DNA of 20,000 nt from the IMG/VR virus record IMGVR_UViG_3300025652_000050. One strand, given 5' to 3'. The stretch's first letter is position 1. The number at the start of each line of letters is the position of its first letter. The DNA is from an uncultured virus (IMG/VR IMGVR_UViG_3300025652_000050). Its lineage: Duplodnaviria; Heunggongvirae; Uroviricota; Caudoviricetes; Crassvirales. The position numbers and the translations under genes are program-made. The notes under the pieces were generated by a model. The model was not told where the DNA came from. It saw only the letters and a list, made by a program, of their open reading frames with translations, and searched no databases. Positions 1 through 20,000 of the stretch are shown here, in pieces.

Positions 1-1
1 A

Positions 2-2176
2 TTTAATAAAAAATCTACTGAAATAGAAGCATTAAGACAAAAACCAAATAAAACTAAAGCAGAAATAAAGCAGATAAAAGAATTTAAGAATTTATCAGAA
101 ACTTTTATACCAAATCCTATTATTGGAGTTACAAAATCAGGTAACCCAAAGTATAAATACAATACTGTAAAACCAGGATATAGAAATGCTTACTACTATG
201 TTAATGGAGTGCAGCAGAAAATAATGATGAAAGAAGAAATTTACGAGCAATGGTTTGGGGAGAAAAAATTCATAAACAATCCAAAAGCAATTGAAAAATT
301 AGCTAAATGGAGTGGTTCAAGACTTCTTAAAACAATGGCAACAGGTAGAAACCCATTATTCTTTATAACAAATACTCCTAGAGATTTTGTAAATACTTTA
401 ATTGTATCACCTGAGTATAGTAAATTCAAACTTTTAGCAGCAGGTCAATTGATTAAAGATTTATTAAAATCATTTGTAGCAATTAAGAACAAAAACGATT
501 CATTTGAAAAGTATTTTGAATATGGTGGAGGAATGTCATTTTTAAGTTCTGAAGGAATGTTAACAGGTAAAAGTTTGACAAGAGAAATACTTGAAAACTC
601 TAAAAATAAAACTGTAAAAACTATATTAGATGCCAATATAAAAGACAAGGCAGGAAAAGTATTAGATTGGCTTACATTACATGAACTTAATCAATATTCT
701 GAACTTATTTTTAGAATTGCAATATTTGATAGAACAGTTAAAAATGAACTTGGTAAAATAAATGAAACTGATATAAACTCTCTTTCAAAAGAACAACAAG
801 AAGATATTTATTTCAGAGCAGTTGCTTCAGCTAGAAGTGTAATGGATTTCAATCAAGGTGGTTACATCACTAAAGATATGGAATCAGTTATGCCTTACTT
901 AAATGCTGCAACACAAGGTTCAAGAGTTTTAATGGATGCATTCGTTGAAAGACCAATAGAAACAACATCTAACATACTTCAATTAACTGCTATGGGAGTT
1001 ACAGGAGCTATGGGTATGTCGATTGCTTTATCAGGACTAGGAAAAGATGATGATGACGAAAGAACATCAACTCAAATTTACTTAGAAAATCTTGAAATGG
1101 TTAGTCCATACGATAGAAGAAACTTTTTCATAATTTTTACAGGTAGAAAAGATGAAGATGGAAACCCAGAATATTTAAAATTTGCAAAAGCACAACAAAT
1201 AACTCCATTTACACAAATAGCAGAACATCATACTGAAAACTATTTCAGAAAACAATATGGTTTAAAAGAAAAAGACAATTTATTAGAAAAGTCTTTATCA
1301 GCAGTAAATGATAATATTTCTCCAATACAGTTTATGTCATTTAAGGATGACCCATCATTAGTAGGCATATCATTAATGGCTAGAAACCCATTTGGAAGAG
1401 CTGCTATGACTTACGCAACAGGTTATGATTTTTACAGACAAGAAAAACTTTCATGGGATATTGATAATAAAGATGTTCCTAAATATATGGAAGGATATAC
1501 TTCTGATAGAGTAGATGATTTTTATAAAGAGTTAGGTCAAGATTTAAAAATATCTCCTATAAGAACAAAAGCTTTTGTGGAAAGTATTGTAACATCACCA
1601 GGAACAAATCCATATTTAGGTGTAATTTATGCAGGATTAGATGCAACAATGTCAGAAGATCAAACTAAAAACAGACTTGAAATTTTAAAAGAGAACACTT
1701 TAAAAAACATTGGTAAAAGAGCGATTGGTTTTGGAAAACCATACAATGTTACTTTAGAAGAGAAGGAAAAACTTAAAGAACAAATTGAGGAGATTCAAGC
1801 AGAAAATATTATTTTCAATAAAAAAGTTGATGATATTGCAAAAGGATTTATCAATAAAACTGAATCACGAAAAGTTTTAGTAGATAGATTGAAAAAAGAA
1901 CTAAAATTAGAACCATTTAAAGCCGAGAGAGCAGTAAAAAGATTGGAAGATAAGATTAAGTTTAGCGATGTTGACCAATTCTATTTAGATTTAAAGTACG
2001 AGAATAATAATGAAGTAAAAGCTTTAATGATTTTTAATAAGTTTGGTGATATAAGCAAACTATCTCCTGAAAAAAGAAAAGAAGCAGGAAAACAACTTGA
2101 AGATATAAGTTTCACGTTTAATGATGAAACTGCAAATAAGTATAGAGAATTACTTATAGAATTTGAAGAAAGATAA
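2..2176 (+). CDS. C-terminal part of a very large phage protein (LPD38-like large polyvalent protein / putative virion-ejected protein); 5' truncated by window
   Basis: Frame is open from position 2 through the GTG at 209 to TAA at 2176. Motifs 'DFNQGG' and 'MPYLNAATQG' followed by a hydrophobic helix resemble LPD38-type C-termini (recognised from memory, not searched). Confidence 0.6.
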   Translation, partial: FNKKSTEIEALRQKPNKTKAEIKQIKEFKNLSETFIPNPIIGVTKSGNPKYKYNTVKPGYRNAYYYVNGVQQKIMMKEEIYEQWFGEKKFINNPKAIEKLAKWSGSRLLKTMATGRNPLFFITNTPRDFVNTLIVSPEYSKFKLLAAGQLIKDLLKSFVAIKNKNDSFEKYFEYGGGMSFLSSEGMLTGKSLTREILENSKNKTVKTILDANIKDKAGKVLDWLTLHELNQYSELIFRIAIFDRTVKNELGKINETDINSLSKEQQEDIYFRAVASARSVMDFNQGGYITKDMESVMPYLNAATQGSRVLMDAFVERPIETTSNILQLTAMGVTGAMGMSIALSGLGKDDDDERTSTQIYLENLEMVSPYDRRNFFIIFTGRKDEDGNPEYLKFAKAQQITPFTQIAEHHTENYFRKQYGLKEKDNLLEKSLSAVNDNISPIQFMSFKDDPSLVGISLMARNPFGRAAMTYATGYDFYRQEKLSWDIDNKDVPKYMEGYTSDRVDDFYKELGQDLKISPIRTKAFVESIVTSPGTNPYLGVIYAGLDATMSEDQTKNRLEILKENTLKNIGKRAIGFGKPYNVTLEEKEKLKEQIEEIQAENIIFNKKVDDIAKGFINKTESRKVLVDRLKKELKLEPFKAERAVKRLEDKIKFSDVDQFYLDLKYENNNEVKALMIFNKFGDISKLSPEKRKEAGKQLEDISFTFNDETANKYRELLIEFEER

Positions 2177-2233
2177 AATAAAGTTTGGGAGTAGCCACCA
2201 ATTAAAAAACGTGAGGTATTTTATTTAAAATAG

Positions 2234-2263
2234 AAACCCTATCCGATTGAGATAGGGTTTTTT
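2234..2263. terminator. Rho-independent terminator between convergent genes
   Basis: Stem AAACCCTATC (2234-2243) / GATAGGGTTT (2251-2260) followed by a T run; lies between the + strand large gene and the - strand operon. Confidence 0.8.
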
Positions 2264-2290
2264 ATTTTCAGGGAGTTTAACTAATACTTG

Positions 2291-2428
2291 TTAGTTTTTG
2301 TCGTTGATTATTTCTACTATTTCTTCAACAGTTTCACAAATAATCATTGGTTCATCACAGTCTAACATGTTGTATGCTTCGTAGCCTGAAACTTTGCTTG
2401 GTTCTATTCGGTAGTTTTTGTAAGTCAT
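2291..2428 (-). CDS. small hypothetical protein, 45 aa (MTYKNYRIEPSKVSGYEAYNMLDCDEPMIICETVEEIVEIINDKN)
   Basis: Manually translated; below ORF-track cutoff; fills the gap between the NinG-like gene and the terminator in operon orientation. Confidence 0.55.
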   Translation of the reverse strand: MTYKNYRIEPSKVSGYEAYNMLDCDEPMIICETVEEIVEIINDKN

Positions 2429-2440
2429 GGAGTTTTGGTG

Positions 2441-3205
2441 TTATTTGTTAAAAATACAATATTTTTCTTCGTAAATTCCTAATTCGATATTAATTTGATT
2501 TCTTAGTTCTATTCTTTTTTCTAAAGAATGTTTTTTGCTTATTTTTTTAAGCTTTAAGACTATTTTTTTTGCTTTAAATGTTAGTTCCTCATATTCAAAA
2601 GATTTTAACTTAGGAGTTTCTGTAGCCTTTAAATCTGTTATAAAGTTCATATAATCTTGTCCATACTCTCTAATAACTCCTTCTCTTAAAAGACCATCAT
2701 CATTTTGAAAGTGATTTGACTGAGCATTTTGTCTATGAATATTATGTAAATTATACTTAATATTTGAATTACCACCTCTTGCGTATATATGACCTGCGTG
2801 AATTTGACCACCTCTTTGTCTTGCTAAACAATCTAATCCAAAATCTATTAATCTAACTATTTTATTAACTTCTTTTTGGAGTTCGTTTTTCCAATTAGTT
2901 GTACTTGATTTAAGTTTTTGTTTAAACTTTTTCTCATTTTGTATTTTAGTTTTTTCAACTATTTTTAAAGCATACGAAACTTTACAATCTATATTATCAC
3001 AAACTTTATTTTCATACCTACCAACTGGCATGAAATATTCTTTACATTCTTGACATTTTTTTTTCTTTATTACTAATGGAGATTTCAGTTTCAAATTTGG
3101 TTTTTTGTCCTTGTTGAAACATTCTCTTGAACAATGTCTTTCAGTTTTACTGTACTTTGGAGTAAATTCTTTTCCGCAACTTGGATTTTTACACTTCTTT
3201 GCCAT
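2441..3205 (-). CDS. NinG/Rap-like recombination endonuclease (HNH-type) with N-terminal Zn-finger repeats
   Basis: CxxxxC..F / CxxC N-terminal motifs, then 'VRLID.GLDC', 'HAGHIYARG' and 'YNLHNIHRQ', typical of the NinG family. Confidence 0.75.
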   Translation of the reverse strand: MAKKCKNPSCGKEFTPKYSKTERHCSRECFNKDKKPNLKLKSPLVIKKKKCQECKEYFMPVGRYENKVCDNIDCKVSYALKIVEKTKIQNEKKFKQKLKSSTTNWKNELQKEVNKIVRLIDFGLDCLARQRGGQIHAGHIYARGGNSNIKYNLHNIHRQNAQSNHFQNDDGLLREGVIREYGQDYMNFITDLKATETPKLKSFEYEELTFKAKKIVLKLKKISKKHSLEKRIELRNQINIELGIYEEKYCIFNK

Positions 3206-3397
3206 CTATTCTGTTTTTTCGATTAACAATTTAACTTCTTTCCAAAACTCCTTTGTTTGAGTCGGTGGAACTTTGAATCCAATGTAAGCTTCGTGTTGTG
3301 TAGCACTTATACATTCTTCTACTAAAATCATAACATACTCTTTGTTGTTATCAAATTTAGCCATTAATTCAATTAGTTTTACTTCTGGTTTTTGCAT
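3206..3397 (-). CDS. hypothetical phage protein
   Basis: 63-aa ORF abutting its neighbours in the operon; C-terminal 'FWKEVK..IEK'. Confidence 0.65.
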   Translation of the reverse strand: MQKPEVKLIELMAKFDNNKEYVMILVEECISATQHEAYIGFKVPPTQTKEFWKEVKLLIEKTE

Positions 3398-3398
3398 T

Positions 3399-3602
3399 TT
3401 ATAAAAATATTAGTTTGTGGTTAATTCCTTCACGAATTTTAATTCGCTTCTCTTTGTACAGTTTCATTAGAACTTCTCGACATTCTTTATAAGAAATTCC
3501 AAATTCATTCTGAACTTTTACAATTGGTGTTCCGCATTTATTACCGTTTGATTTTTGCTCAAACTCTAGGAATAAAAATATTTCAAATTCTAAATCTTCC
3601 AT
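3399..3602 (-). CDS. small winged-helix-like hypothetical protein
   Basis: ORF-track 3399..3644; likelier ATG at 3602 (MEDLEF); 'CREVLMKLYKEKRIKIREG' resembles a wHTH helix-wing. Confidence 0.55.
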   Translation of the reverse strand: MEDLEFEIFLFLEFEQKSNGNKCGTPIVKVQNEFGISYKECREVLMKLYKEKRIKIREGINHKLIFL

Positions 3603-3603
3603 G

Positions 3604-3696
3604 CTAAGTACATCTATATAAGCAGTAAAAAATAAAAAAAGCAATTATCCATGCTATTAATTCATCTATAATTTTATTTAGTTTGTTTCTATTCAT
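3604..3696 (-). CDS. 30-aa putative membrane peptide (MNRNKLNKIIDELIAWIIAFFIFYCLYRCT)
   Basis: Manually translated; fills the gap exactly between adjacent operon genes; single hydrophobic stretch. Confidence 0.45.
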   Translation of the reverse strand: MNRNKLNKIIDELIAWIIAFFIFYCLYRCT

Positions 3697-3700
3697 AATT

Positions 3701-3964
3701 TTAAAATTTAAACATTGTTACTGGATTAACTCTAATTTCCCAAATTTCAAATACCCATTTAGGTTGGTCTATTGTTTCTTTTTTAGGCTCAATTGCTTTT
3801 TTAGGCTTCTTTTCTTTAAAAACTTTTAAATTTTTTTCTTCCATATATTTATTTACAGAATTAAAGCTAACTTCTAGGTTTAAAGAAATTTGATTGATTG
3901 ACATTTTTAGTCTATTTTCTGAAATGAAGTCTTTTTGTTTTTTTGTAAATTCTTTTCTTTTCAT
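3701..3964 (-). CDS. HTH-domain protein
   Basis: 'MSINQISLNLEVSFNSVNKY' helix-turn-helix pattern. Confidence 0.6.
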   Translation of the reverse strand: MKRKEFTKKQKDFISENRLKMSINQISLNLEVSFNSVNKYMEEKNLKVFKEKKPKKAIEPKKETIDQPKWVFEIWEIRVNPVTMFKF

Positions 3965-3976
3965 TCACGTTTTGGT

Positions 3977-4165
3977 TTAAAATGGTGTATATTCTTTTTT
4001 TGGTTTTAATATTTCGTGTTTATCACGTGCTAATTTTTCTGCTATTGCATCACGAATGAAATCACAAACTCGAATGTTATATTTACCTAAATTTTTCAAT
4101 GTTGTACTTTGAATTTTGGTTAATTTTACGGTTTTAACTTCTGTATATTTTAGTGGTGTTGGCAT
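3977..4165 (-). CDS. ribbon-helix-helix (CopG-like) small DNA-binding protein next to the attI-like site
   Basis: Beta strand 'EVKTVKLT', a helix, then 'VCDFIRDAIAEKL'. Confidence 0.55.
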   Translation of the reverse strand: MPTPLKYTEVKTVKLTKIQSTTLKNLGKYNIRVCDFIRDAIAEKLARDKHEILKPKKEYTPF

Positions 4166-4169
4166 AGAT

Positions 4170-4214
4170 TTGTGATACTTTAGGTTCGTACATACAAGAG
4201 TTGGCAGTAATTTT
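4170..4214 (+). other. attI-like / cassette-boundary core site (G|TTGGCAGTA)
   Basis: GTTGGCAGTA at 4200-4209 is the exact reverse complement of TACTGCCAAC at 5014-5023, but no attC hairpin precedes it. Confidence 0.5.
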
Positions 4215-4677
4215 ACCCAACATTGCGCGCCAATTGCAATTCGAGTTTTTTAATGTTTATCATTTGAGAAACTACATTGCAAATTGCGTTCGCTTGATTA
4301 ATGTAAGTTTTGTCTTTTTGTACTTTTTGAATAGTATCTAAAAGAATTACACTCAAATCATTTTCTTGTATTGCTACAATATTTTTTTTATTTTCTTCCA
4401 TTTTATTAGGGTTGAGTTCGTCTTTTTTCACTTGTATTGATACATTTTTTAATTCATTTTGTCTTTTTTCTAAAACTCCTTGTTTTAGTTTTACTCTTAC
4501 AGGAATTAAATTCTCAATAAATAAATCTATTTCGTTTTCAAAGAAATTATAAGTTTGCTTATCTGTAAAAACAATATAAGTAACTCCTACTTTTTTCCAT
4601 TTAGTTATAGTGATAATTTTATCCTTATAATTAAATTTCTTATCGATTAATAAATTTAGCTTTTGTTGCATCTTCAA
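4213..4677 (-). CDS. hypothetical protein (second gene of left cassette)
   Basis: 154-aa ORF; stop lies a few bases from the GTTGGCAG boundary; overlaps the upstream ORF. Confidence 0.7.
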   Translation of the reverse strand: MKMQQKLNLLIDKKFNYKDKIITITKWKKVGVTYIVFTDKQTYNFFENEIDLFIENLIPVRVKLKQGVLEKRQNELKNVSIQVKKDELNPNKMEENKKNIVAIQENDLSVILLDTIQKVQKDKTYINQANAICNVVSQMINIKKLELQLARNVG

Positions 4678-4921
4678 GTTGTTGTTTTAGCTCTAAATTC
4701 AAGTCATAAAGTTTTATAATCTCTATTGATAATTTCTTTATTTGCTCGTCTTTGGTTTCTTTTTCTTCATTCATCGCTCCGTAATATCGGGTGCAAACAG
4801 ATGTAGCAGTTCTTCCAGTTTTCAATGAAGCAATAAAAAACGCTTCTCTTAAATTATTAGGGTTTTTTAAAACCTCTTGTTTAATAATTTCTTCTTCTTC
4901 TGTGGTCCAATTTTTTGCCAT
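4640..4921 (-). CDS. Myb/SANT-like small protein with coiled-coil tail (first gene of left cassette)
   Basis: 'WTTEEEEII...GRTATSVCTRYY' resembles a Myb-like HTH. Confidence 0.6.
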   Translation of the reverse strand: MAKNWTTEEEEIIKQEVLKNPNNLREAFFIASLKTGRTATSVCTRYYGAMNEEKETKDEQIKKLSIEIIKLYDLNLELKQQLEDATKAKFINR

Positions 4922-4932
4922 AATATTATTTT

Positions 4933-5002
4933 TAGTAAAGTTTTCCTAAAGTGGTCGAATTTGACCACTTTAAATATTAAATAGTTAGTAAAATTTTCCT
5001 AA
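4933..5002. promoter_or_regulatory. operator-like palindrome flanked by direct repeats
   Basis: TAAAGTGGTCGAATTTGACCACTTTA (4947-4972), flanked by TAGTAAA(G/A)TTTTCCTAA at 4933 and 4986. Confidence 0.45.
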
Positions 5003-5016
5003 CATCAAAAAACTAC

Positions 5017-5147
5017 TGCCAACACGTGCTATAAGAAATAGCGGGTTCGGTGCTTTCTGAAAGTTCAGGTGTATTTTTAAAATCTGTCATAAATTTAAAG
5101 TTTAGTTTTTATTAATCCGCTACTTCTCATAGCACCATACGTTAGTA
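5017..5147 (+). repeat. attC-like hairpin (left site)
   Basis: TGCCAAC-AC-GTGCTATAAGAAATAGCGG ... CCGCTACTTCTCATAGCAC-CATAC-GTTAGTA; imperfect inverted repeat with AAC/GTT cores, in reverse orientation to the right-hand array. Confidence 0.8.
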
Positions 5148-5363
5148 GCAAGAATACGATTTCGTTTCATTCGCGAATCTCCAATGCTCGTTTTTTTCTA
5201 TAAATCCAATATTACCATTTGATAACTGAACGGAATGTAAGTATCCATATATAGCTATTTTGTCTTTACTTTCAAAGTCAACTTTTATGATAGTTCCATA
5301 TAATCCTTGATAATTTCCACTTATAAATTTTACGTTGTCACCGTTTTTTAATTCCTTTTTCAT
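5142..5363 (-). CDS. KOW-motif (SH3-like) hypothetical protein
   Basis: 'LKNGDNVKFISGNYQGLYGTIIKV' is a KOW pattern; the stop codon overlaps the GTTAG core of the attC-like site. Confidence 0.65.
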   Translation of the reverse strand: MKKELKNGDNVKFISGNYQGLYGTIIKVDFESKDKIAIYGYLHSVQLSNGNIGFIEKNEHWRFANETKSYSCY

Positions 5364-5448
5364 AATATATTTAGTTTTATAATAACTGCTATATTTAATA
5401 GCTATTATTTAATTTCTCTTCTTTTTCCCTTGTAATACCATCTGTTAT

Positions 5449-6930
5449 TTAAAAAGGAATATCATTTTCGTCAGGTAAATCAAAAGCATCTTTTATGCTT
5501 ACTTTTGGAATTTCTAATAATTCTACTTTTACAATATTTGGATTTTCTCTGAAATATCTACCTGAAATATTTTGTCCTAAATGTTCTAAATCCATAAACC
5601 TCATGTATTTTAATTGACAACCAACTCTGCAATATCCTGTTTCTCCATGCCTATATTTAGCAACTTCTATTTCTGCTTGGTCAATTGTAGGAGAACGTTC
5701 GTCGTCATCCCATTCATCTATTTTATAATATTCTGGTCGATAAATAAACATAACAACATCTGCATCTTGTTCTATTGATCCAGAATCCCTTAAATCAGAT
5801 AGCATAGGTCTTTTACTTGAACCTCTTTGTTCTACACTTCTTGACAATTGTGCTAATGCAATTACAGGAACATCTAAGTCTTTAGCTAGAGCTTTTAGAG
5901 AATTTGATATTTCTGCAACTTCTTGTTCTCTATTGTTTATTTTTTTATTTTTTACTTTCATTAATTGTAAATAATCAACAAAAATAATTTTAATAAATTT
6001 TTCTCTTTTTAATTTATTGCTTTTTATTTTTAACTCAATTGGAGAAATTCCACTTGTATCATCAATTGTAATTGGTAAGTTTGCTAATAAGTCAGAACAT
6101 TTTTTTAATTCTATTATTTCTTGTGGTGTTAAGTTAAAACTATTTATTTTTACAATATCGATACCTGAAATAATACTTAACATTCTTCCTATTATTTGTT
6201 TTTCACTCATTTCAAGACTAAAAAAAGCAACAGGAATACCTCTTAAACCACATTCAATTATTTCATTTAAAGCGTATGCAGTTTTACCACTTCCAGGTCT
6301 TCCTCCTAAAACTATTAAATCTGAATTTTGGAAACCATTTAGTTTTTTATTTAAAAGTGTTAGACAAGATTTTACACCTGGATTATTATTTTTATTACTA
6401 TTTAAATAAGCATTTACATTTTCTTTAAAATCTGAATCTTTTCCAACGGTTATTAAGTCTGTAACTTCCCCAAATTCCTTATAAGCTTTTTCTAATAATT
6501 CAAAAACATCAACATCTTCATTGTATGAATCCTCTATCATATTTGAAGAAACTTTTATACATTTTCTTTGAATATATTTTTGAAGTAAAATTCTTGAATG
6601 ATATTCTATATGAGCTGAAGAAGATACTTTTTGAGTTAATTCTATTAAAGTAAAATCTCCACCAATTAAATCTAATTTAGATACTCTTTTTAATTCTGCT
6701 GAGACTGTTAATAAATCAACTCCTTTATTTTGATGATATAAATTAATTATTGCTTCGAAAATAAATTTATTACTTTCTTTGTAAAACACATCAGGAGTAA
6801 GTAATTCAACTGCTTCATTTAAGCCATTTTTATCAATCATCATAGCTCCAATTACAGCTTCTTCTAAATCTATCGACTGAGGAGGTAATTTACCTTTATT
6901 TAGATCTATTATATTTGATTTCTCTACCAT
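5449..6930 (-). CDS. dnaB: replicative DNA helicase DnaB
   Basis: 'LPPQSIDLEEAVIG' N-terminus, Walker A 'GRPGSGKT', 'FFSLEM', 'FVDYLQL', 'LAQLSR', 'RPMLSDLRDSGSIEQDAD'. Confidence 0.97.
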   Translation of the reverse strand: MVEKSNIIDLNKGKLPPQSIDLEEAVIGAMMIDKNGLNEAVELLTPDVFYKESNKFIFEAIINLYHQNKGVDLLTVSAELKRVSKLDLIGGDFTLIELTQKVSSSAHIEYHSRILLQKYIQRKCIKVSSNMIEDSYNEDVDVFELLEKAYKEFGEVTDLITVGKDSDFKENVNAYLNSNKNNNPGVKSCLTLLNKKLNGFQNSDLIVLGGRPGSGKTAYALNEIIECGLRGIPVAFFSLEMSEKQIIGRMLSIISGIDIVKINSFNLTPQEIIELKKCSDLLANLPITIDDTSGISPIELKIKSNKLKREKFIKIIFVDYLQLMKVKNKKINNREQEVAEISNSLKALAKDLDVPVIALAQLSRSVEQRGSSKRPMLSDLRDSGSIEQDADVVMFIYRPEYYKIDEWDDDERSPTIDQAEIEVAKYRHGETGYCRVGCQLKYMRFMDLEHLGQNISGRYFRENPNIVKVELLEIPKVSIKDAFDLPDENDIPF

Positions 6931-15153: not shown

Positions 15154-15166
15154 CTTTATAATTTAA

Positions 15167-15300
15167 AAATAACGTTTATCGGCTTTATTTCAGTGCCGTA
15201 ATTTAAAACTGAAGTTCACAAATAAAAACTAAACTTATGAATAGAGAAAACAATTCCAATAAATACCAAGCAAAGGCATTGAATAAAACCGATGTTATAA
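15167..15300 (-). repeat. attC-like hairpin 1
   Basis: AAATAAC-GTTT-ATCGGCTTTATTTCAGTGCC ... GGCATTGAATAAAACCGAT-GTTATAA. Confidence 0.8.
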
Positions 15301-15322
15301 GCCGTTTTTTTTTTTAAAAATT

Positions 15323-15697
15323 ATGGAAGTTACATATTATCAATTTTGTAAAACAATAGCCGAAGATTTTGGTATTGAATTAAATCAAAATCACAAAACT
15401 AAATTTAATCAATTCCCTATAAAAAATGGGAAAAGAAAAATAAACTCTTTTCACGATGCTACAATAGTAGACAAGCAAGGGAATGAATACCCTTATATGA
15501 TTAGTCAAACCGTTAGGAACGAAGAAAAACTAATTGATTTTGATTATATATATGTTATAAGACCAAAAAATCTAAATCAAATTATAGAAGAAACGGGTGT
15601 TGTTTTAAAATCAAACTCTTGTAAAATTTGTGAAGGCGGTGGTTGGTATAGTCAAGGAACAGAATACTTTTATAAAGGAATATCTTGTGAAGTATAG
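15323..15697 (+). CDS. cassette 1 hypothetical protein
   Basis: 124-aa ORF between hairpins 1 and 2; ends GTTATAAGCCGTTTT / AAAATGGATTATAAC. Confidence 0.75.
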   Translation: MEVTYYQFCKTIAEDFGIELNQNHKTKFNQFPIKNGKRKINSFHDATIVDKQGNEYPYMISQTVRNEEKLIDFDYIYVIRPKNLNQIIEETGVVLKSNSCKICEGGGWYSQGTEYFYKGISCEV

Positions 15698-15712
15698 TCG
15701 TCCTAAAATGGA

Positions 15713-15843
15713 TTATAACGGTCTCGCTGCTTTGCGAGGTTGCAAAATTCAAGACTAATAATTAAAATACAAACTAAACTTTAAATTTATGACTGATAAT
15801 AAAAATATTACTAATGTGCAATCTTGCAAAACAGCTGTTATGC
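15713..15843 (-). repeat. attC-like hairpin 2
   Basis: TTATAAC..GCTGCTTTGCGAGGTTGCA ... TGCAATCTTGCAAAACAGCT-GTTATGC. Confidence 0.85.
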
Positions 15844-16061
15844 CACGTAGTTTAACATTCGAAAATGGAGCAAAAGCACTTTTAATGGGTGAATTTGCAG
15901 AATATATTGAATTACCAAATGAAGAATATTGTGGTTGTGGAGAATGTGATTATTGTATAGAATTTCCAGATACAGAAGAAACTATTATTCATAAAGTGCC
16001 TATAAGTTGGGATTTAATAAAGGACATATACTCTCAGATTGTAGCTCACTATGGGGCATAA
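15789..16061 (+). CDS. cassette 2 protein, Cys-rich; resembles a segment of DUF551/Ea-type enterobacterial phage proteins; starts inside hairpin 2
   Basis: 'LTFENGAKALLMGEF...CGCGECDYC...VPISWDLIKDIY'; resemblance from memory. Confidence 0.65.
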   Translation: MTDNKNITNVQSCKTAVMPRSLTFENGAKALLMGEFAEYIELPNEEYCGCGECDYCIEFPDTEETIIHKVPISWDLIKDIYSQIVAHYGA

Positions 16062-16177
16062 CGTTTAGTATATGGCAAGTAGCCGACACATAAGTAAGTA
16101 CATAAAGAATAAATTATTAATTAAGCAAATAGTAAAAAAATAAGCCTAACAGCTATTTGCTATATACATTGTTAGGC
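16056..16177 (-). repeat. attC-like hairpin 3
   Basis: GCATAAC..GTATATGGCAAGTAGC ... GCTATTTGCTATATAC-ATT-GTTAGGC. Confidence 0.85.
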
Positions 16178-16188
16178 AACGTTTTATT

Positions 16189-16407
16189 ATGAAATACGAA
16201 ACTGAAATAAATGAAATTCTTAATACTGTACTTCCTAAAGAAAGTTGGATGACAGATGATGAACATAAAGAAATAATCGAAGAAACTTTTATGCAAATGG
16301 GGGTAAATAAGCAAAAACTTTCTGACGATATAGAAGTAGGTATAAAAAATGGATATACGGTTAAGCAACAAATTGAGTTATTGAAACGAGTTCTAAATGT
16401 TTCCTAA
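16189..16407 (+). CDS. cassette 3 hypothetical protein
   Basis: 72-aa ORF; stop overlaps the CCTAAC core. Confidence 0.75.
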   Translation: MKYETEINEILNTVLPKESWMTDDEHKEIIEETFMQMGVNKQKLSDDIEVGIKNGYTVKQQIELLKRVLNVS

Positions 16408-16538
16408 CGTTTGAGGCTTTGCGAGGATTTTCGGGAAGCACAAAAAGACTTTTCAAATTTAAAAATTAACTTAAAAAATACACAATGACTAAAAAATTAA
16501 ATACAGACACCGAAAATCTTGCAAAACCTTTGTTATAA
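16402..16538 (-). repeat. attC-like hairpin 4
   Basis: TCCTAAC..AGGCTTTGCGAGGATTTTCGG ... CCGAAAATCTTGCAAAACCT-TT-GTTATAA. Confidence 0.85.
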
Positions 16539-16565
16539 GCATACCACGAATTAAAAATTTATAAT

Positions 16566-16787
16566 ATGAAAAAAGTAATAATTATTGGTGCAAATACATT
16601 AATTGCAACTCAAATACTTGCAAATTCAGTACAAGAAAAAACTATTATTGTTGCACAAGAACAAAACAATCCTTTTGAAAGAGAGCCTATTAAAATAACA
16701 GCTACTTTACCTTTACCAAAATTGATAGACTGTTATGATAAAAAAGGTAAACTATTTGAACTACCTAAATCTAAATTCCATAAGTAG
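16566..16787 (+). CDS. cassette 4 hypothetical protein
   Basis: 73-aa ORF; ends GTTATAAGCA / TGCTTATAAC are perfectly complementary. Confidence 0.75.
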   Translation: MKKVIIIGANTLIATQILANSVQEKTIIVAQEQNNPFEREPIKITATLPLPKLIDCYDKKGKLFELPKSKFHK

Positions 16788-16799
16788 CTAAAAGGTTGC

Positions 16800-16893
16800 T
16801 TATAACGGTAGGTATATGGTTAGTGCGCCTACCATAAACTTTTAAATTAAGCACCGACCTTCATAGGCGCATTAACTATATACAATGTTGTGT
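16800..16893 (-). repeat. attC-like hairpin 5 (short)
   Basis: TTATAAC..GTATATGGTTAGTGCGCCTA ... TAGGCGCATTAACTATATAC-AAT-GTTGTGT. Confidence 0.85.
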
Positions 16894-16911
16894 GCCGTTA
16901 ATTTTAGAAAT

Positions 16912-17112
16912 ATGAAAACAGCGGTAACAGTAATACAAACAATCCAAACAGGGATGGATAATTACAAAGACTTGAAAAAAACAAAAGTGTTTGAAGATAA
17001 CACAACTTTGCTTGAAATAAAGCAATGGGCAAAAGAAGCTATGAACGTTAAAAAAATAGAAGTGAAAGATATTAGTTTAGGTTGCTTAGACTTTTCTGAT
17101 GTTGAGTCTTAA
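16912..17112 (+). CDS. cassette 5 hypothetical protein
   Basis: ORF-track 16885..17112; likelier start MKTAV at 16912. Confidence 0.7.
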   Translation: MKTAVTVIQTIQTGMDNYKDLKKTKVFEDNTTLLEIKQWAKEAMNVKKIEVKDISLGCLDFSDVES

Positions 17113-17116
17113 TGGC

Positions 17117-17254
17117 ACATAACGTTTGATGGCTTTGCGAGGATTTTCAGATTAGAGCAAACTAATTAATTGATTAATAACAAAATAAACCAAATACAAA
17201 ATGAATAAAAAAACAAATACAGAATCTGAAAATCTTGCAAAACCTTTGTTAACC
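17117..17254 (-). repeat. attC-like hairpin 6 (homolog of hairpin 4)
   Basis: ACATAAC..GGCTTTGCGAGGATTTTCAGATT ... AATCTGAAAATCTTGCAAAACC-TTT-GTTAACC. Confidence 0.85.
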
Positions 17255-17629
17255 ACTGTGTTTTTAGCACCGTATTTGCCTTACGGATTGAAAATAAAAT
17301 ATAGAGAACATATAGGTATTTTGCTTAAATTATGGCAAGATAAAGACACTCTGTACATAAACTGTATAAATGGAATAGGAACGTTTGTAAATCCAACATA
17401 CCCAAATGAATTTAAACCAATTTTAAAACCTATTTCAGATTTAACAAGACCTGAGTTAGAAGATGCGGAGTTTAGATATTATATTGATTATTTGACTTAC
17501 GAAAATCAAGGAGTAGAATGGACTTTAAGAGCTCCCTATGATATGATAGTTTACTTATTAAGTCAACATTATGATATTTACGGATTAATAGAAAAAGGTT
17601 TGGCAATATCTATCCACGATGTTGAGTAA
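17201..17629 (+). CDS. cassette 6 protein, conserved Bacteroidota-phage family ('LAPYLPYGLK...KPILKP.SDL...HYDIYGLIEKGLAI'); starts inside hairpin 6
   Basis: 142-aa ORF; family recognised from memory. Confidence 0.75.
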   Translation: MNKKTNTESENLAKPLLTTVFLAPYLPYGLKIKYREHIGILLKLWQDKDTLYINCINGIGTFVNPTYPNEFKPILKPISDLTRPELEDAEFRYYIDYLTYENQGVEWTLRAPYDMIVYLLSQHYDIYGLIEKGLAISIHDVE

Positions 17630-17635
17630 CATTGT

Positions 17636-17770
17636 GGTTAACGTTTTGCAGCTTGCGAAAGTGGCGTTTTTTAGTACCAAGCCTTTACAAATATACACTA
17701 ACTTTTAAATTTAAAAAATATGTTTATAGATACATCCTAAACTAGCCATTTTTGCAAACTGCTGTTGTGC
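17636..17770 (-). repeat. attC-like hairpin 7
   Basis: GGTTAAC..GCAGCTTGCGAAAGTGGC ... GCCATTTTTGCAAACTGC-T-GTTGTGC. Confidence 0.85.
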
Positions 17771-17785
17771 GTTCGGTTTTTATTA

Positions 17786-18211
17786 TTAAATTTTAGTATA
17801 AACTATAACTACACTAATAGACAAACCATTTCCTTCCCTTTGAAAGCTAGTGATTAATGAGTTGTTTGTTAATTCATCAATGTTTACTTTAAATATTGGT
17901 TCATCTAAACCAGGATCATCAAATACATAAGTTATTTTATTATTAGATAAAGAGTAGTCAGATGGGTCTAAATAACTAGTTGTTCCACATAAATAATGTT
18001 CATAGTATCTATTATCAGTTTTATACTCTTTATAAGTTCCTGTTGAGCAGTTGTCTAGATTCATAACTTCATTATTATTTTTAATAGAAACTATTTTCCA
18101 CTTTCCAATTAATAATGTTCCATCAATATTTTGATTTGAATCATCATTTTTTGAGCAAGAAGAGAAAGTAAGAATAAATAAAGAGAAAAGTAGTGTAATT
18201 AAATTTTTCAT
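17786..18211 (-). CDS. Bacteroidota-type lipoprotein with lipocalin-like domain (cassette 7, antisense to the rest of the array)
   Basis: Signal peptide plus lipobox 'FSSC-SKNDD', 'LIGKWKIVS' and beta-barrel pattern. Confidence 0.8.
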   Translation of the reverse strand: MKNLITLLFSLFILTFSSCSKNDDSNQNIDGTLLIGKWKIVSIKNNNEVMNLDNCSTGTYKEYKTDNRYYEHYLCGTTSYLDPSDYSLSNNKITYVFDDPGLDEPIFKVNIDELTNNSLITSFQREGNGLSISVVIVYTKI

Positions 18212-18353
18212 AGATAAAAGTTGTTTAAAATTGAATACAATATTAAAATAAAAAAAGATTAGAATTTTACGGTAAACCGTAAAGTGGTTAAAAAATAATT
18301 ATGTGGTTTAATATTCCTCCACAAAAAAGGAATTAAAATTAAAATTAAAAATC

Positions 18354-18539
18354 ATGTCAAAAACACAAAAAAACCAAGACAAAATAAACATTTCTGAACC
18401 AATAAAAGCTATTGAATCTCCTGAAACCATAAATAAAGCAATAGAAATACTTTCTATACTTAGAGGAAAAACAATAGATGAGTGTGTAAAAACTTTAGGA
18501 TTAGCAAGGGAATTACTTTTTACTAATTCTAATTTCTAG
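18354..18539 (+). CDS. cassette 7 small hypothetical protein
   Basis: 61-aa ORF with an A-rich upstream region. Confidence 0.6.
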   Translation: MSKTQKNQDKINISEPIKAIESPETINKAIEILSILRGKTIDECVKTLGLARELLFTNSNF

Positions 18540-18672
18540 ACATTATTATATTAAGTATTCTTTTTAATAGAGTATTATTACCTGCTATATCTCCTTTTAG
18601 CTCATCAATTTCGCCACGTAAAGATTGGATTTCTTCTCTTAGTCTTCTGATTTCGTTCTCTAATTCATTCAT
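18529..18672 (-). CDS. 47-aa coiled-coil peptide (MNELENEIRRLREEIQSLRGEIDELKGDIAGNNTLLKRILNIIMSRN)
   Basis: Manually translated; clear heptad pattern; converges on and overlaps 18354..18539. Confidence 0.5.
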   Translation of the reverse strand: MNELENEIRRLREEIQSLRGEIDELKGDIAGNNTLLKRILNIIMSRN

Positions 18673-18746
18673 AATTTAATTTTTTTATTTATGTTAATAT
18701 TTCAATTTTATTATTTCTTTCGATTTTTACGTTCCACGAAACTGAC

Positions 18747-18878
18747 GCACAACGTCTTGCGTCTTGGCGAGGTTGCTGAGTACGGAAAAATAAATTATCA
18801 ATTTTAAACAAAATATTATGCGAAACGTAAACGTGATTAAACCACAAAATCAGCAATCTTGCCAAAACGCTGTTATGA
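18747..18878 (-). repeat. attC-like hairpin 8
   Basis: GCACAAC..GCGTCTTGGCGAGGTTGCTGA ... TCAGCAATCTTGCCAAAACGC-T-GTTATGA. Confidence 0.85.
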
Positions 18879-19153
18879 CCAGTTATTACTTGGTTAGGTA
18901 TTCAGGCGGAAGCTATGATGATTATTATAGTGCGGTTATTTTTGTTACTAACAACAAAAAGACTGCGACTAAATATTGTACTAAATTCAATAAAACTTTA
19001 AAAAAGTGGAAAGACTATTATAAACAATTTGAAACTAAAAAATACGGAATAATAACTTGGATAAGAGATGAGTACATTGATACAAAATTTTACCGATGGA
19101 ATAAACTTCAAAAAATCAGCCGATGTTATTACGAAGTCGTTTCGGTCAGATAA
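18818..19153 (+). CDS. cassette 8 hypothetical protein; starts inside hairpin 8
   Basis: 111-aa ORF 'YYLVRYSGGSYDDYY..VIFVT'. Confidence 0.75.
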   Translation: MRNVNVIKPQNQQSCQNAVMTSYYLVRYSGGSYDDYYSAVIFVTNNKKTATKYCTKFNKTLKKWKDYYKQFETKKYGIITWIRDEYIDTKFYRWNKLQKISRCYYEVVSVR

Positions 19154-19157
19154 TTGG

Positions 19158-19278
19158 TCATAACGGTTTGTATATGAAACGTTGCAGACCGAAACTTAAT
19201 AGATAGACACAAAGAATTGAATTATTAATAAACTAAATAAAAGACCACTAAAGCAATGTTTTATATACGTTGTTATGT
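19158..19278 (-). repeat. attC-like hairpin 9
   Basis: TCATAAC..GTATATGAAACGTTGC ... GCAATGTTTTATATAC-GTT-GTTATGT. Confidence 0.85.
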
Positions 19279-19290
19279 GGCGTTTGAATT

Positions 19291-19494
19291 ATGACTAAAA
19301 AAGAATCAGCACTTAGAGAATTACGTAAATTAATGGATATACTAAAAACTTGGGGGAATTGCCTTGTACCTACATTATCTGACCAAAAAGAAACTTACGC
19401 ACAGGACAGGTTAAACCATTTTGCAAATTACCTTATAAATGAAGAAGGTATGACCATTGAACAGATAGATGCCGAAATATTAGCACTTGACTAA
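19291..19494 (+). CDS. cassette 9 hypothetical protein
   Basis: 67-aa ORF between hairpins 9 and 10. Confidence 0.75.
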   Translation: MTKKESALRELRKLMDILKTWGNCLVPTLSDQKETYAQDRLNHFANYLINEEGMTIEQIDAEILALD

Positions 19495-19498
19495 TGCC

Positions 19499-19630
19499 TC
19501 ATAACGTTTCTCGGCTTTGCTTTGTTGCGGAAAAGTATGCCGAAAGTTTAGATTTAAAAACAAAATTAACAAATACAAACCAAACATTGGTTAAGCACTA
19601 AACCGCAATAGAGCAAAACCGATGTTATAA
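19499..19630 (-). repeat. attC-like hairpin 10 (homolog of hairpin 1)
   Basis: TCATAAC..TCGGCTTTGCTTTGTTGCGG ... CCGCAATAGAGCAAAACCGA-T-GTTATAA. Confidence 0.85.
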
Positions 19631-19642
19631 GTAGCTTTTATT

Positions 19643-19852
19643 ATGACAAACGAATATTTACAACAAAAATTTGGAGAATTAATTTATGAATTAGGTGAAA
19701 TTAACTTCAACGCAATTACAGATGATTTTTGGCAAAAACATATAAATGAAAATCAAAACTTCAACGAAAAGCAATTAGAATGTTTAAGGCATTTTGCAGA
19801 AGATTTAATAAAACACGAACTAAAAGAAATAACTAAAAAATACATTAGGTAG
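19643..19852 (+). CDS. cassette 10 hypothetical protein
   Basis: 69-aa ORF between hairpins 10 and 11. Confidence 0.75.
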   Translation: MTNEYLQQKFGELIYELGEINFNAITDDFWQKHINENQNFNEKQLECLRHFAEDLIKHELKEITKKYIR

Positions 19853-19879
19853 CTTAACCGCAATGTTCTTTAAAGTTAC

Positions 19880-20000
19880 TTATAACGGTTTGTATATGAA
19901 ACGTTGCAGACCGAAACTTAATAGATAGACACAAAGAATTGAATTATTAATAAACTAAATAAAAGACCACTAAAGCAATGTTTTATATACGTTGTTATGT
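19880..20000 (-). repeat. attC-like hairpin 11 (identical to hairpin 9)
   Basis: 19882-20000 is identical to 19160-19278. Confidence 0.85.

What the first reader, a model, noticed from the sequence alone, without database searches (positions are those of the whole stretch)
4170..5147. Second mini-array with an attI-like site inside the replication operon
Seen: hairpin 5017-5147; its flank AAAACTACTGCCAAC pairs 14/15 with GTTGGCAGTAATTTT at 4200, delimiting a two-gene cassette (4213-4921). No hairpin precedes 4200, only GTGATACTTTAGGTTCGTACATACAAGA-GTT, the position an attI would occupy. The hairpin loop shares AAACTAAACTTTAAATTTATGAC (23 nt) with hairpin 2, about 10 kb away, linking the two loci. 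Inference: the phage has at least two cassette-accepting loci.
Basis: partly seen in the sequence, partly recalled or inferred. Interest (0 to 1): 0.75.

Follow-up and report, generated by a model that had tools for sequence, protein, structure and literature searches.

The report
Second cassette dock in phage integron
A Flavobacterium-type phage keeps a second, small row of swappable gene cassettes inside its replication genes, ending at a conserved docking sequence beside a small gene instead of beside the recombinase, which suggests that these phage "integrons" can load cassettes at more than one place.

Summary
The hairpin is a true member of the phage's attC-like site family: a covariance model built only from relatives scores it 91 bits, E 4.5e-17, on the MINUS strand. 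The 14/15 flank pairing is real (0 of 200 shuffles). The locus reads on the minus strand, co-oriented with the replication genes: DnaB, then a 73-aa gene that is a cassette elsewhere, then the hairpin, then a two-gene cassette, then AAC | 34-nt site | 62-aa gene.

The same two-gene cassette sits in true arrays in two viral contigs at 95-97% identity. There the arrays end as AAC | conserved site | a 267-aa Xer-like integrase.

Six further contigs carry a relative of the 62-aa gene. In each, the gene is preceded by about 33-46 nt and the AAC end of a different cassette. One is 36/37 identical across the AAC plus site, with homology starting exactly at the AAC. So 4166-4200 is a recurrent array terminus, a second kind of attI-like dock.

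Limits: no integrase lies in the window or in five of those six contigs, recombination was not observed, and no empty site was found.

This scan's earlier AI notes describe similar Xer-type phage integron-like systems on other DNA. The dock beside the 62-aa gene is what this report adds.

The parts
3977..4165 (-). 62-aa gene that follows the dock. It is conserved together with the dock. Function unknown (phrog_25647); possibly a small DNA-binding protein.
   Evidence: Relatives in L050 and L061-L065 are 47-89% identical. The AlphaFold model is low-confidence (pLDDT 64) with two helices after an extended N-terminus. Only the L050 homolog gives a weak DUF6290 hit (E 0.007, below cut-off).
4166..4200 (-). 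attI-like docking site ('attI2'). It reads C|TCTTGTATGTACGAACCTAAAGTATCACAAATCT on the minus strand and starts with the C of the AAC at 4202->4200.
   Evidence: 36/37 identical in L061, where a different cassette abuts it. The same position and layout occur in 6 of 6 contigs holding a relative of the 62-aa gene. Rank 2 of 872 AAC sites with a weight matrix built from 17 integrase-adjacent sites. The motif AACTNYTRTATRTA matches once in the window, with chance expectation 0.01 (the motif was shaped after seeing the site). A window-wide profile search is not significant (E 1.4).
4200..4214 (+). Right-hand flank of the two-gene cassette (R'' box plus extension). It is complementary to the flank at 5009-5023.
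   Evidence: 1 mismatch, 0 of 200 shuffles reach 2 matches; 7 of 8 positions next to the boxes are complementary.
4213..4921 (-). Cargo of cassette b. ORF1 4921->4640 is 93 aa, with a weak Myb-like DNA-binding hit. ORF2 4671->4213 is 152 aa, with a weak phrog_17069 hit (function unknown).
   Evidence: The module is 94.7-96.7% identical in nucleotides in L011 and L012, inside true arrays.
4946..4981 (.). Palindrome in the 5' leader of cassette b. It may be an operator or a terminator.
   Evidence: Sequence. 28-44 nt matches occur near the homologous gene pair in L015 and L016.
5014..5150 (-). attC-like hairpin site: AAC 5143->5141, stems 5136->5118 and 5044->5026, GTT 5023->5021. By the family's commonest unit it belongs to cassette b, which then runs C5141..A4201.
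   Evidence: 91.2 bits, E 4.5e-17, minus strand only. It carries the AACG...TGTT polarity marks that are invariant in 69 of 69 family members. Stem checked.
5013..5090 (-). 25-codon reading frame that starts in the hairpin loop and stops in the R' flank. The loop stretch 5072-5113 is 90% like the loop of the site at 15717-15839, where the same ATG opens a 90-aa gene.
   Evidence: my own reading of the sequence.
5142..5386 (-). Cassette a remnant: the 73-aa KOW-like gene (5363->5142) with its cassette-type 3' flank TCTTGCTACTAA|C. No hairpin lies upstream of it, and its 5' flank is degenerate (5 of 8).
   Evidence: In L058 the 84%-identical gene lies between two attC sites, with flanks GTTAGTAGC...GCTACTAAC. 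L050 has the same flanks around another ORF. L010 has the gene without the flanks..
5384..5402 (+). Second attI-like sequence (AAC TGCTATATTTAATAGC) at the distal edge of the mini-array, inverted relative to 4166-4202. Its meaning is unknown.
   Evidence: Rank 1 of 872 AAC sites (8.2 bits). The short motif AACTNYTATAT alone is not significant (chance mean 0.41). Profile E-value 2.4.

Best explanation
The region 4166-5386 is a second, short cassette array of a phage-borne integron-like system, read on the minus strand.

Its units are gene cassettes bounded by folded attC-like sites of the form AAC-stem-loop-stem-GTT. In this family the strand that folds is the gene-sense strand. Homology breaks lie mainly at the 5' AA|C, so each hairpin leads the gene that follows it.

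The one complete unit here is C5141..A4201: the hairpin plus two genes. It abuts, at AA|C, a conserved 34-nt site in front of a conserved 62-aa gene. That site is the array's docking end. It is attI-like and resembles the site found next to the Xer-like integrase in related phages.

Cassettes would be inserted and exchanged there by a roughly 267-aa Xer-type tyrosine recombinase acting in trans. Such a recombinase is probably encoded beyond the right end of the big array (15164-20000+), which the window does not show.

Shown: site membership and strand, cassette identity in other arrays, recurrence of the junction with different cassettes, and covariation of the stems.

Inferred: the recombination itself, its strand and cleavage point, and the presence of the integrase in this phage.
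For: (1) Family membership. A model built from 69 sites of relatives hits 11 sites on + at 15164-20000 and one on - at 5150->5014. Across 86 sites, 95.9% of pair cells form pairs against 64.5% in shuffles, 471 against 137 cells change on both sides, and slid controls give 34-51%.

(2) Cassette footprint. In the big array, 10 of 10 cassettes have at least 6 of 8 complementary flank bases (mean 6.3). 100 non-adjacent pairs average 3.0, and 4 of them reach 6. Cassette b has 7 of 8.

(3) Cassette b in other arrays. It lies in the arrays of L011 (7 hairpins in my scan; b is terminal) and L012 (5 hairpins; b is internal) at 96.7% and 94.7% identity, with ends at 5024/5025 and 4200.

(4) The integrase-adjacent terminus. 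Those arrays end AAC|TACTATATGTA..., about 55 nt before the ATG of a co-directional 267-aa recombinase. 22 of 35 integrase loci carry this motif at that place. 28 of 35 have at least one hairpin upstream, and the other 7 have under 370 nt of sequence upstream.

(5) The 62-aa-gene terminus. All 6 contigs with a relative of the 62-aa gene show cassette-AAC | 32-46 nt | ATG, with differing cassette flanks. Model hits upstream number 5 in L061, 6 in L063, 10 in L064 and 7 in L050. L061's homology starts exactly at the AAC.

(6) Breakpoints. Among shared in-array segments, 17 sharp ends fall at AAC and 6 at GTT. L040 and L047 share a 324-nt unit at 99.7% identity running from AAC to AAC.

(7) Folding strand. 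G.T pairing next to the boxes occurs in 86 of 86 sites on the sense strand only.
Against: - No tyrosine recombinase is seen in the window.
- None is found in the five contigs of L061-L065, one of which is rated 97% complete, although its array runs off the contig end.
- A window-wide profile search for the docking site is not significant (E 1.4).
- Only the docks of the window, L061 and L065 look like the integrase-adjacent site to my eye; in the matrix L065 ranks only 20 of 872. The docks of L050 and L062-L064 do not resemble it (ranks 84-324 of 872).
- The hairpin in front of cassette b differs in the window, L011 and L012. The hairpin-leads-gene unit is therefore not kept for this cassette.
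- 6 of 23 sharp ends lie at GTT.
- Folding energy is not better than shuffles.
- No empty site was found.
- The distal cassette a has no hairpin upstream and a poor 5' flank.
Confidence: 0.72

Rival explanations
1. Inert relic. A fragment of an integron-like array (cassette tail, hairpin, cassette, dock) was carried into the replication module by ordinary phage mosaicism and no longer recombines. Under this view the 34 nt are simply the leader or promoter of the 62-aa gene.
For: There is no integrase nearby and only one hairpin at the locus. Cassette a is degenerate at its 5' end. Both G001 and L061 lose homology at 3996-4003, so the dock plus 62-aa gene behaves as a mosaic block. The conserved part of the site in L062-L064 (CTATAAAAGTATTAC...) lies next to the ATG, as a leader would.
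Against: The window and all 6 relative contigs share the exact AAC| junction; the abutting flanks differ, with two flank types recurring. Arrays of 5-10 hairpins lie at the same junction in relatives. That pattern calls for repeated site-specific events at this point, not one accidental transfer.
Confidence: 0.15
2. Regulatory stem-loops, not recombination sites. The hairpins would be promoter/terminator modules, like the PeSL elements of T4-type phages. Genes would be shuffled by homologous recombination between similar hairpins.
For: Loops carry start codons and A/T-rich leaders. The sense strand is the one selected to fold, as for an RNA. Hairpin cores are shared between unrelated genes. 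For PeSL (PMC2839356) I saw only the search listing and the start of the abstract.
Against: AAC and GTT are invariant in 86 of 86 sites. The complementarity between the two ends of each cassette has no role in a regulatory element. A tyrosine recombinase with a conserved junction site follows the arrays: 22 of 35 integrase loci carry the junction motif and 28 of 35 have at least one hairpin upstream. Homology breaks fall within a few bases of AAC or GTT. The two roles are not exclusive.
Confidence: 0.07
3. A single cassette inserted by an integrase at a secondary GTT site (attG-like) in the intergenic space between the 73-aa and 62-aa genes.
For: The GTT at 4200 and the GTT at 5141 would frame one insert. 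Without the insert, the stop codon of the 73-aa gene and the 62-aa gene would be 34 nt apart. attG insertion is known for classical integrons (bioRxiv 10.1101/2022.09.11.507474; abstract and outline seen).
Against: No relative has the empty site. The 73-aa gene is itself cassette-derived. The target is a conserved array terminus in 6 other contigs. Homology with other copies of the cassette ends at 5024/5025, not 5141.
Confidence: 0.04

Closest known systems
Classical integrons (IntI integrase, attI, attC-bounded cassettes; sedentary chromosomal integrons)
   Same: Rows of one- or two-gene cassettes are separated by imperfect hairpin sites with outer AAC/GTT boxes. The two ends of each cassette are complementary, as expected from a circular intermediate. 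A conserved non-hairpin docking site lies at one end of the array. A tyrosine recombinase sits next to that site in related phages.
   Different: The recombinase is Xer-like and 267 aa long. It falls below the IntI cut-off and matches IntI only up to about residue 180. The gene-sense strand is the folding strand, and the hairpin leads its gene instead of trailing it. The inner loop asymmetry lies on the 5' arm. This locus has a dock with no integrase beside it.
CALIN / SALIN (attC sites lacking an integron integrase), including those reported in phages (Qi et al. 2023, PMC9892861; abstract and section 3.4 read)
   Same: attC-type sites occur in a phage genome away from any integrase. Cassette cargo in relatives includes DNA methyltransferases, as that paper reports for phage cassettes.
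   Different: That paper treats such clusters as integrase-less fragments recognised by bacterial IntI1. Here the cluster ends at a conserved site that recurs with a conserved gene, and relatives encode their own Xer-like integrase.
attG secondary-site insertion of integron cassettes (Loot et al., bioRxiv 10.1101/2022.09.11.507474; abstract and outline seen)
   Same: A cassette lies outside the main array, with a junction at a GTT/AAC triplet.
   Different: The target here is not an arbitrary genomic site but a conserved terminus shared by the window and six other contigs. No empty site is known.
Xer/dif recombination and dif-flanked modules
   Same: The recombinase's best family match is archaeal XerA (187 bits, cut-off 220) and its best solved relatives are XerA structures. 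The cleavage context ...ATAA|C resembles the Xer arm ...CATAA| of E. coli dif. That dif sequence is recalled, not tested here.
   Different: Arrays of folded sites carrying cargo genes, and a docking site, are not features of chromosome-dimer resolution.
PeSL mobile regulatory cassettes of T4-type phages (PMC2839356, PMC4122927; search listing only)
   Same: Small accessory phage genes are each led by a stem-loop that also carries expression signals, and they are shuffled between related phages.
   Different: As I recall it, PeSL shuffling is ascribed to homologous recombination without a dedicated recombinase. Here there are invariant AAC/GTT boxes, flank complementarity and an associated integrase.

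Membership tests
Classical integron | An IntI-type integrase carrying the integron-specific additional domain | tested here: not met
   There is no tyrosine recombinase in the window. The array-adjacent recombinase of the relatives (L011, L012) scores 146 bits on TIGR02249 against a cut-off of 265. It matches in two stretches, the best covering residues 7-182 on profile positions 2-180 of 315. The match to VchIntIA (2a3v) covers only residues 10-180.
Classical integron | attC sites: imperfect inverted repeats with outer AAC...GTT boxes and conserved structure but variable sequence | tested here: met
   AAC and GTT are invariant, 15 of 20 pairs show changes on both sides, and the hairpin at 5150->5014 scores 91.2 bits.
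Classical integron | Cassette boundaries at the box triplet, with the two cassette ends complementary (circular-intermediate footprint) | tested here: met
   10 of 10 cassettes of the big array reach at least 6 of 8, and cassette b reaches 7 of 8. One search supports the 14/15 flank pairing.
Classical integron | attC trails its gene, and the strand antisense to the genes is the folding and recombining strand | tested here: not met
   G.T pairs occur on the sense strand in 86 of 86 sites. Sharp homology ends fall at the 5' AAC 17 times and at GTT 6 times. Segments that start at AAC run through the hairpin into the following gene.
Classical integron | An attI docking site adjacent to the integrase gene | tested here: not met
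   At this locus the dock (4166-4200) is followed by a 62-aa gene. In relatives a similar site does precede the integrase.
Classical integron | Integrase-dependent excision and insertion of cassettes | not testable with these tools
Only comparative evidence is available.
CALIN (cluster of at least 2 attC sites without integrase) | Two or more attC sites close together with no integrase nearby | tested here: not met
   There is one model hit at this locus. Formally it is a single attC without an integrase. The definition is recalled; 'SALIN' appears in the section headings of the Loot et al. preprint.
attG-type secondary-site insertion | An isolated cassette in an otherwise ordinary target, with an empty site in relatives | tested here: not met
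   no empty site was found, both neighbours belong to the array system, and the target is conserved as an array terminus.
Xer recombinases | A score above the curated cut-off of a Xer equivalog model | tested here: inconclusive
   The best hit is NF040815 XerA at 187 bits against a cut-off of 220. XerC and XerD score 158-160 bits against cut-offs of about 330.

The most novel reading that the evidence does not exclude
These Flavobacterium phages run an integron-like system with two kinds of docking site. One sits beside the Xer-type integrase. The other sits beside a small conserved 62-aa protein that helps recruit the integrase. This would let arrays sit inside essential operons, and would let phages without an integrase of their own (such as the contig rated 97% complete) draw on a shared cassette pool through integrases supplied in trans by co-infecting phages or prophages. 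The pair of inverted attI-like arms at 4166-4202 and 5384-5402 would make the mini-array an invertible or exchangeable block.
Probability: 0.25. Interest if true: 0.85.

Novelty: new variant of a known kind. Interest (0 to 1): 0.7.

Why it matters
Integrons are thought of as bacterial devices with one integrase, one attI and promoter-less cassettes whose sites trail the genes. Here a phage lineage uses the same logic with several differences:
- The recombinase is Xer-like and lacks the integron-specific domain.
- The hairpins lead the genes.
- As this locus shows, there is more than one kind of docking end, and one of them has no integrase beside it.

If this holds, three things follow. Phage accessory genes (relatives carry DNA methyltransferases in cassettes) can be swapped at several places in a genome. 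"Integrase-less attC clusters" in phages need not be dead fragments. The system also offers natural material for asking how strand choice and attI recognition work without the IntI-specific domain, and how ordinary genes become cassettes: the same genes occur here both as cassettes and as plain phage genes.

Tried and rejected
- Empty site. An exact search for the 29 nt left of and including the GTT at 4200 in viral contigs found 0.
- Neighbouring genes. DnaB relatives (8 loci) and 73-aa-gene relatives (1 locus; 3 loci, one of them the same contig and one a weak high-GC match I set aside) gave no contig with the two neighbours adjacent.
- Closest relative. G001 is 99% identical over window 1-4003, diverges at 4003, and its contig ends 59 nt later. 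It says nothing about the locus.
- Own assembly. It is not held, so the phage's integrase could not be sought.
- Secondary-site idea. My first hypothesis, an attG-like insertion of one cassette, was dropped.
- Classical orientation. I considered the hairpin as the trailing site of the 73-aa cassette. That fits cassette b's differing hairpins in L011 and L012, but not the AAC|dock junction or the 17:6 breakpoint tally.
- Docking-site profile search in the window: E 1.4, not significant on its own.
- Folding z-scores are not significant.
- 62-aa protein. Pfam gives nothing above cut-off. The AlphaFold model is too weak (pLDDT 64) for a fold search, so none was run. The protein atlas returns only viral hypothetical clusters plus a weak DUF3950 lead.
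- Chance matrix hits. Two weight-matrix hits in L041 lie inside a 736-aa gene and are chance.
- Literature. Four searches found no description of a Flavobacterium-phage integron-like system with a Xer-type integrase or with a second dock. Subscription journals and supplements were not searched.
Full report
WHAT IS THERE. The window is 28% G+C phage DNA. A minus-strand replication and recombination block includes NinG, a DnaD-like protein, DnaB at 5449-6930, an antirepressor and RecT. From 15164 to the window's end there is a row of hairpin sites on the + strand.

The finding's hairpin is real. Arms 5026-5044 and 5118-5136 form 19 pairs, bracketed by AAC 5021-5023 and GTT 5141-5143. Its folding energy is no better than that of shuffled sequence (z -0.71 and -1.50), so energy alone proves nothing.

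The 15-nt flank left of the hairpin recurs, inverted, at 4200-4214 with one mismatch. 0 of 200 shuffles give two matches. The loop shares 42 nt at 90% with the loop of the site at 15717-15839, in inverted orientation.

FAMILY AND STRAND. I aligned 69 hairpin sites taken only from arrays in other contigs. AACG at the 5' end and TGTT at the 3' end are invariant. I built a covariance model from them.

With filters off the model finds 12 sites in the window. Eleven lie on + between 15164 and 20000. One lies on the minus strand at 5150->5014, with 91.2 bits and E 4.5e-17. The next best match has E 0.16, and the + strand of the hairpin does not score. With default filters this hit is lost.

On 86 model-aligned sites, 95.9% of pair cells are paired against 64.5% in shuffles. 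471 cells against 137 change on both sides. Sliding the partner by 1-3 columns drops pairing to 34-51% (the alignment is fitted to the model, which favours it). The pair next to the boxes is G.T in 86 of 86 sites. That pairs only on the gene-sense strand, so the sense strand is the one kept foldable.

The mini-array therefore reads on the minus strand, like the genes around it.

THE SYSTEM IN RELATIVES. Cassette b consists of the two ORFs 4921->4640 and 4671->4213. It occurs at 96.7% identity in L011 and 94.7% in L012, with homology ends at window 5024/5025 and, for L012, exactly 4200. Both contigs hold arrays, of 7 and 5 hairpins in my scan. Cassette b is terminal in L011 and internal in L012.

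Each array ends as cassette-AAC|TACTATATGTA..., about 55 nt before the ATG of a co-directional tyrosine recombinase of 267-268 aa. That enzyme is Xer-like:
- NF040815 XerA: 187 bits, cut-off 220.
- IntI model TIGR02249: 146 bits, cut-off 265, best stretch only to residue 182.
- Match to the solved IntI (2a3v): stops at residue 180.

A search with the enzyme gave 34 viral loci. Counting L012 as well:
- 22 of 35 have AACTNYT[A/G]TAT at that place.
- 28 of 35 have at least one hairpin upstream; the other 7 have under 370 nt of upstream sequence.
- A second clade has another conserved junction, TAAC|GTYCCCATTTA....

The closest genomic relatives of the enzyme are in Flavobacterium MAGs (82% and 74% identity).

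THE NEIGHBOUR IS ALSO A CASSETTE. In L058 an 84%-identical copy of the 73-aa gene lies between two hairpin sites, with flanks GTTAGTAGC...TCTTGCTACTAAC. The window keeps the 3' flank, and the stop codon's AA is the AA of the hairpin's AAC. It has no hairpin upstream and only 5 of 8 complementary flank bases.

L010 has the gene as a plain gene ending nine residues earlier. L050 has the same pair of flanks around a different ORF, followed by a cassette with b's flanks and yet another ORF.

THE DOCK. The 34 nt between b's AAC (4202->4200) and the ATG of the 62-aa gene (4165) are the point of the finding. The 62-aa gene has relatives in L050 and in five more viral contigs. In all six, the gene is preceded by 32-46 nt and then the AAC end of a cassette. 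The cassette flanks are CATATAAC, GCTACTAAC, TGCCACTAAC (in two contigs), GACTATAAC and TTACTAAC.

Model hits upstream:
- L061: 5.
- L063: 6.
- L064: 10.
- L050: 7, on the matching strand.
- L062: none by the model, though 4 hairpins by my cruder scan.
- L065: the contig starts 25 nt before the AAC.

L061 is the closest. Homology of 93.7% begins exactly at the AAC (window 4202) and runs to 3996. 36 of 37 bases of AAC plus site are identical, while the cassette in front is unrelated.

The site also resembles the integrase-adjacent dock. I built a weight matrix from the 16 nt after the AAC of 17 such docks. Among the window's 872 AAC sites, the site at 4202 ranks second (5.4 bits) and the third best scores 0.55.

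Against this:
- A profile search over the whole window gives only E 1.4.
- The docks of L050 and L062-L064 do not match the matrix (ranks 84-324 of 872).
- None of the five contigs of L061-L065 holds a tyrosine recombinase. One is rated 97% complete, though its array runs off the contig end. L050 has both kinds of array, back to back, plus the integrase.

WHICH UNIT MOVES. In the big array the 8 nt after each GTT are complementary to the 8 nt before the next AAC in 10 of 10 cassettes (6-7 of 8). In 100 non-adjacent pairs the mean is 3.0, and 4 reach 6. That fits a circular intermediate but does not say where it is cut.

Among in-array segments shared between contigs at 85% identity or more (35 listed, several of them in integrase regions), sharp ends shared by both partners within 6 nt fall at AAC 17 times and at GTT 6 times. 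Segments starting at AAC usually run through the hairpin and 10-133 nt into the next gene. L040 and L047 share a 324-nt unit from AAC to AAC at 99.7%. In the window two hairpins (19160-19278 and 19882-20000) are 100% identical from ATAAC onward, behind different genes.

The commonest unit is therefore hairpin plus following gene, cut at the 5' AA|C of the folding (sense) strand. That cut position within the folded strand matches classical integrons as I recall them, but the genes lie on the opposite strand relative to it.

The exceptions matter. Cassette b has three different hairpins in front of it in the window, L011 and L012. Four segments are hairpin-only with both ends sharp. A recombinase without the IntI domain that reads extrahelical bases (recalled knowledge) may choose strands less strictly, which would swap hairpins between genes. 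This is inference.

MECHANISM, WITH STATUS.
- Shown: the site's family membership, strand and covariation; the identity of the cassette in other arrays; the recurrence of the AAC|dock junction with different cassettes.
- Inferred: a Xer-type integrase folds the sense strand of a cassette's site and joins it at AA|C to the double-stranded dock. The dock at 4166-4200 is used by an enzyme encoded elsewhere. The cassettes ride on the replication operon's transcription and on signals in their own loops.

AN UNEXPLAINED SYMMETRY. The best-scoring AAC site in the window (8.2 bits) is at + 5384. That is exactly the complement of the GTT that starts the 73-aa cassette, and it faces away from the array. 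The mini-array is thus bracketed by two outward-facing attI-like arms.

In 452 kb of other loci, hits of 5.4 bits or more that are not at a dock are two chance hits inside a gene in L041 and one in L008. The short motif alone is not significant. The arms could mark an invertible block or insertions on opposite strands. I could not test this.

WHAT IS KNOWN. Qi et al. 2023 (PMC9892861; abstract and section 3.4 read) report integrons and integrase-less attC clusters in 21 phages. These include a Polaribacter phage and methyltransferase cassettes, and the paper shows IntI1 can use some phage attC sites. From what I read, it does not describe a phage-own Xer-type integrase or docking sites.

Loot et al. 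(preprint; abstract and outline seen) describe insertion at attG sites.

PeSL elements were seen in a search listing only.

Four literature searches gave no description of this system.

Earlier AI notes of this scan describe Xer-type integron-like arrays in phages and the hairpin-leads-gene logic on other DNA. They are not independent evidence. I re-derived strand and breakpoints here.

LIMITS.
- No recombination was observed.
- The phage's own integrase is unseen.
- Relatives are metagenomic fragments.
- My hairpin scan and breakpoint tally rest on thresholds I chose.
- Near-duplicate contigs were dropped before the tally (L033, L039, L053; L011, L017-L019 as copies of L024).
- The 62-aa protein's function is unknown.

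Noticed in passing
window 15164-20000 (+): The big array holds 11 attC-like sites (E 7e-21 to 7e-6). Its cassettes encode 67-142-aa proteins, all without Pfam hits except one reverse-oriented lipocalin-like gene (17786-18211). It runs off the window's right end, where a dock and an integrase would be expected.
   Followed up: partly
window 19160-19278 and 19882-20000: Two hairpin sites are 100% identical over 119 nt, starting at ATAAC, but sit behind different genes. This suggests a recent duplication of a hairpin-led unit. The window ends before the following gene can be compared.
   Followed up: partly
window 15789, 17201, 18818 (+) and 5090->5013 (-): ATG codons in hairpin loops open reading frames that run through the 3' stem and the GTT box into the cassette gene in 3 of 11 sites. 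At 5090 the frame stops after 25 codons, in the cassette flank.
   Followed up: partly
L013-L016 (with window 4213-4921) and L010 (with window 5142-5363): The two genes of cassette b (46-97% amino-acid identity) and the 73-aa gene (82%) also occur as ordinary phage genes without hairpins or cassette flanks. These are possible snapshots of how cassettes are recruited from the phage gene pool.
   Followed up: partly
L050 8587-9261: Two cassettes carry the same 13-20-nt flank pairs as cassettes a and b of the window, in the same order, but with unrelated ORFs and another hairpin between them. Flank pairs seem to form families that are independent of their cargo.
   Followed up: no
window 5384-5402 (+) and 4166-4202 (-): The two best matches in the window to the integrase-adjacent dock matrix sit at the two edges of the mini-array, in inverted orientation.
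   Followed up: partly
window 3996-4003: Both G001 (99% identical to its left) and L061 (94% identical to its right) lose homology here, near the 3' end of the 62-aa gene. The dock plus the 62-aa gene therefore behaves as its own mosaic module.
   Followed up: no
L006 6485-6608; L007 6998-8225: In two contigs whose DnaB is 47-48% identical, hairpins with the AACG...TGTT marks follow DnaB directly. The position after DnaB may be a recurrent home for such arrays.
   Followed up: no
L012 1189-5330: Three of the cassettes in this relative's array encode DNA methyltransferases (two N6/N4, one C5), and the terminal cassette encodes a PAPS-reductase-like protein. These are plausible counter-defence cargo.
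   Followed up: no
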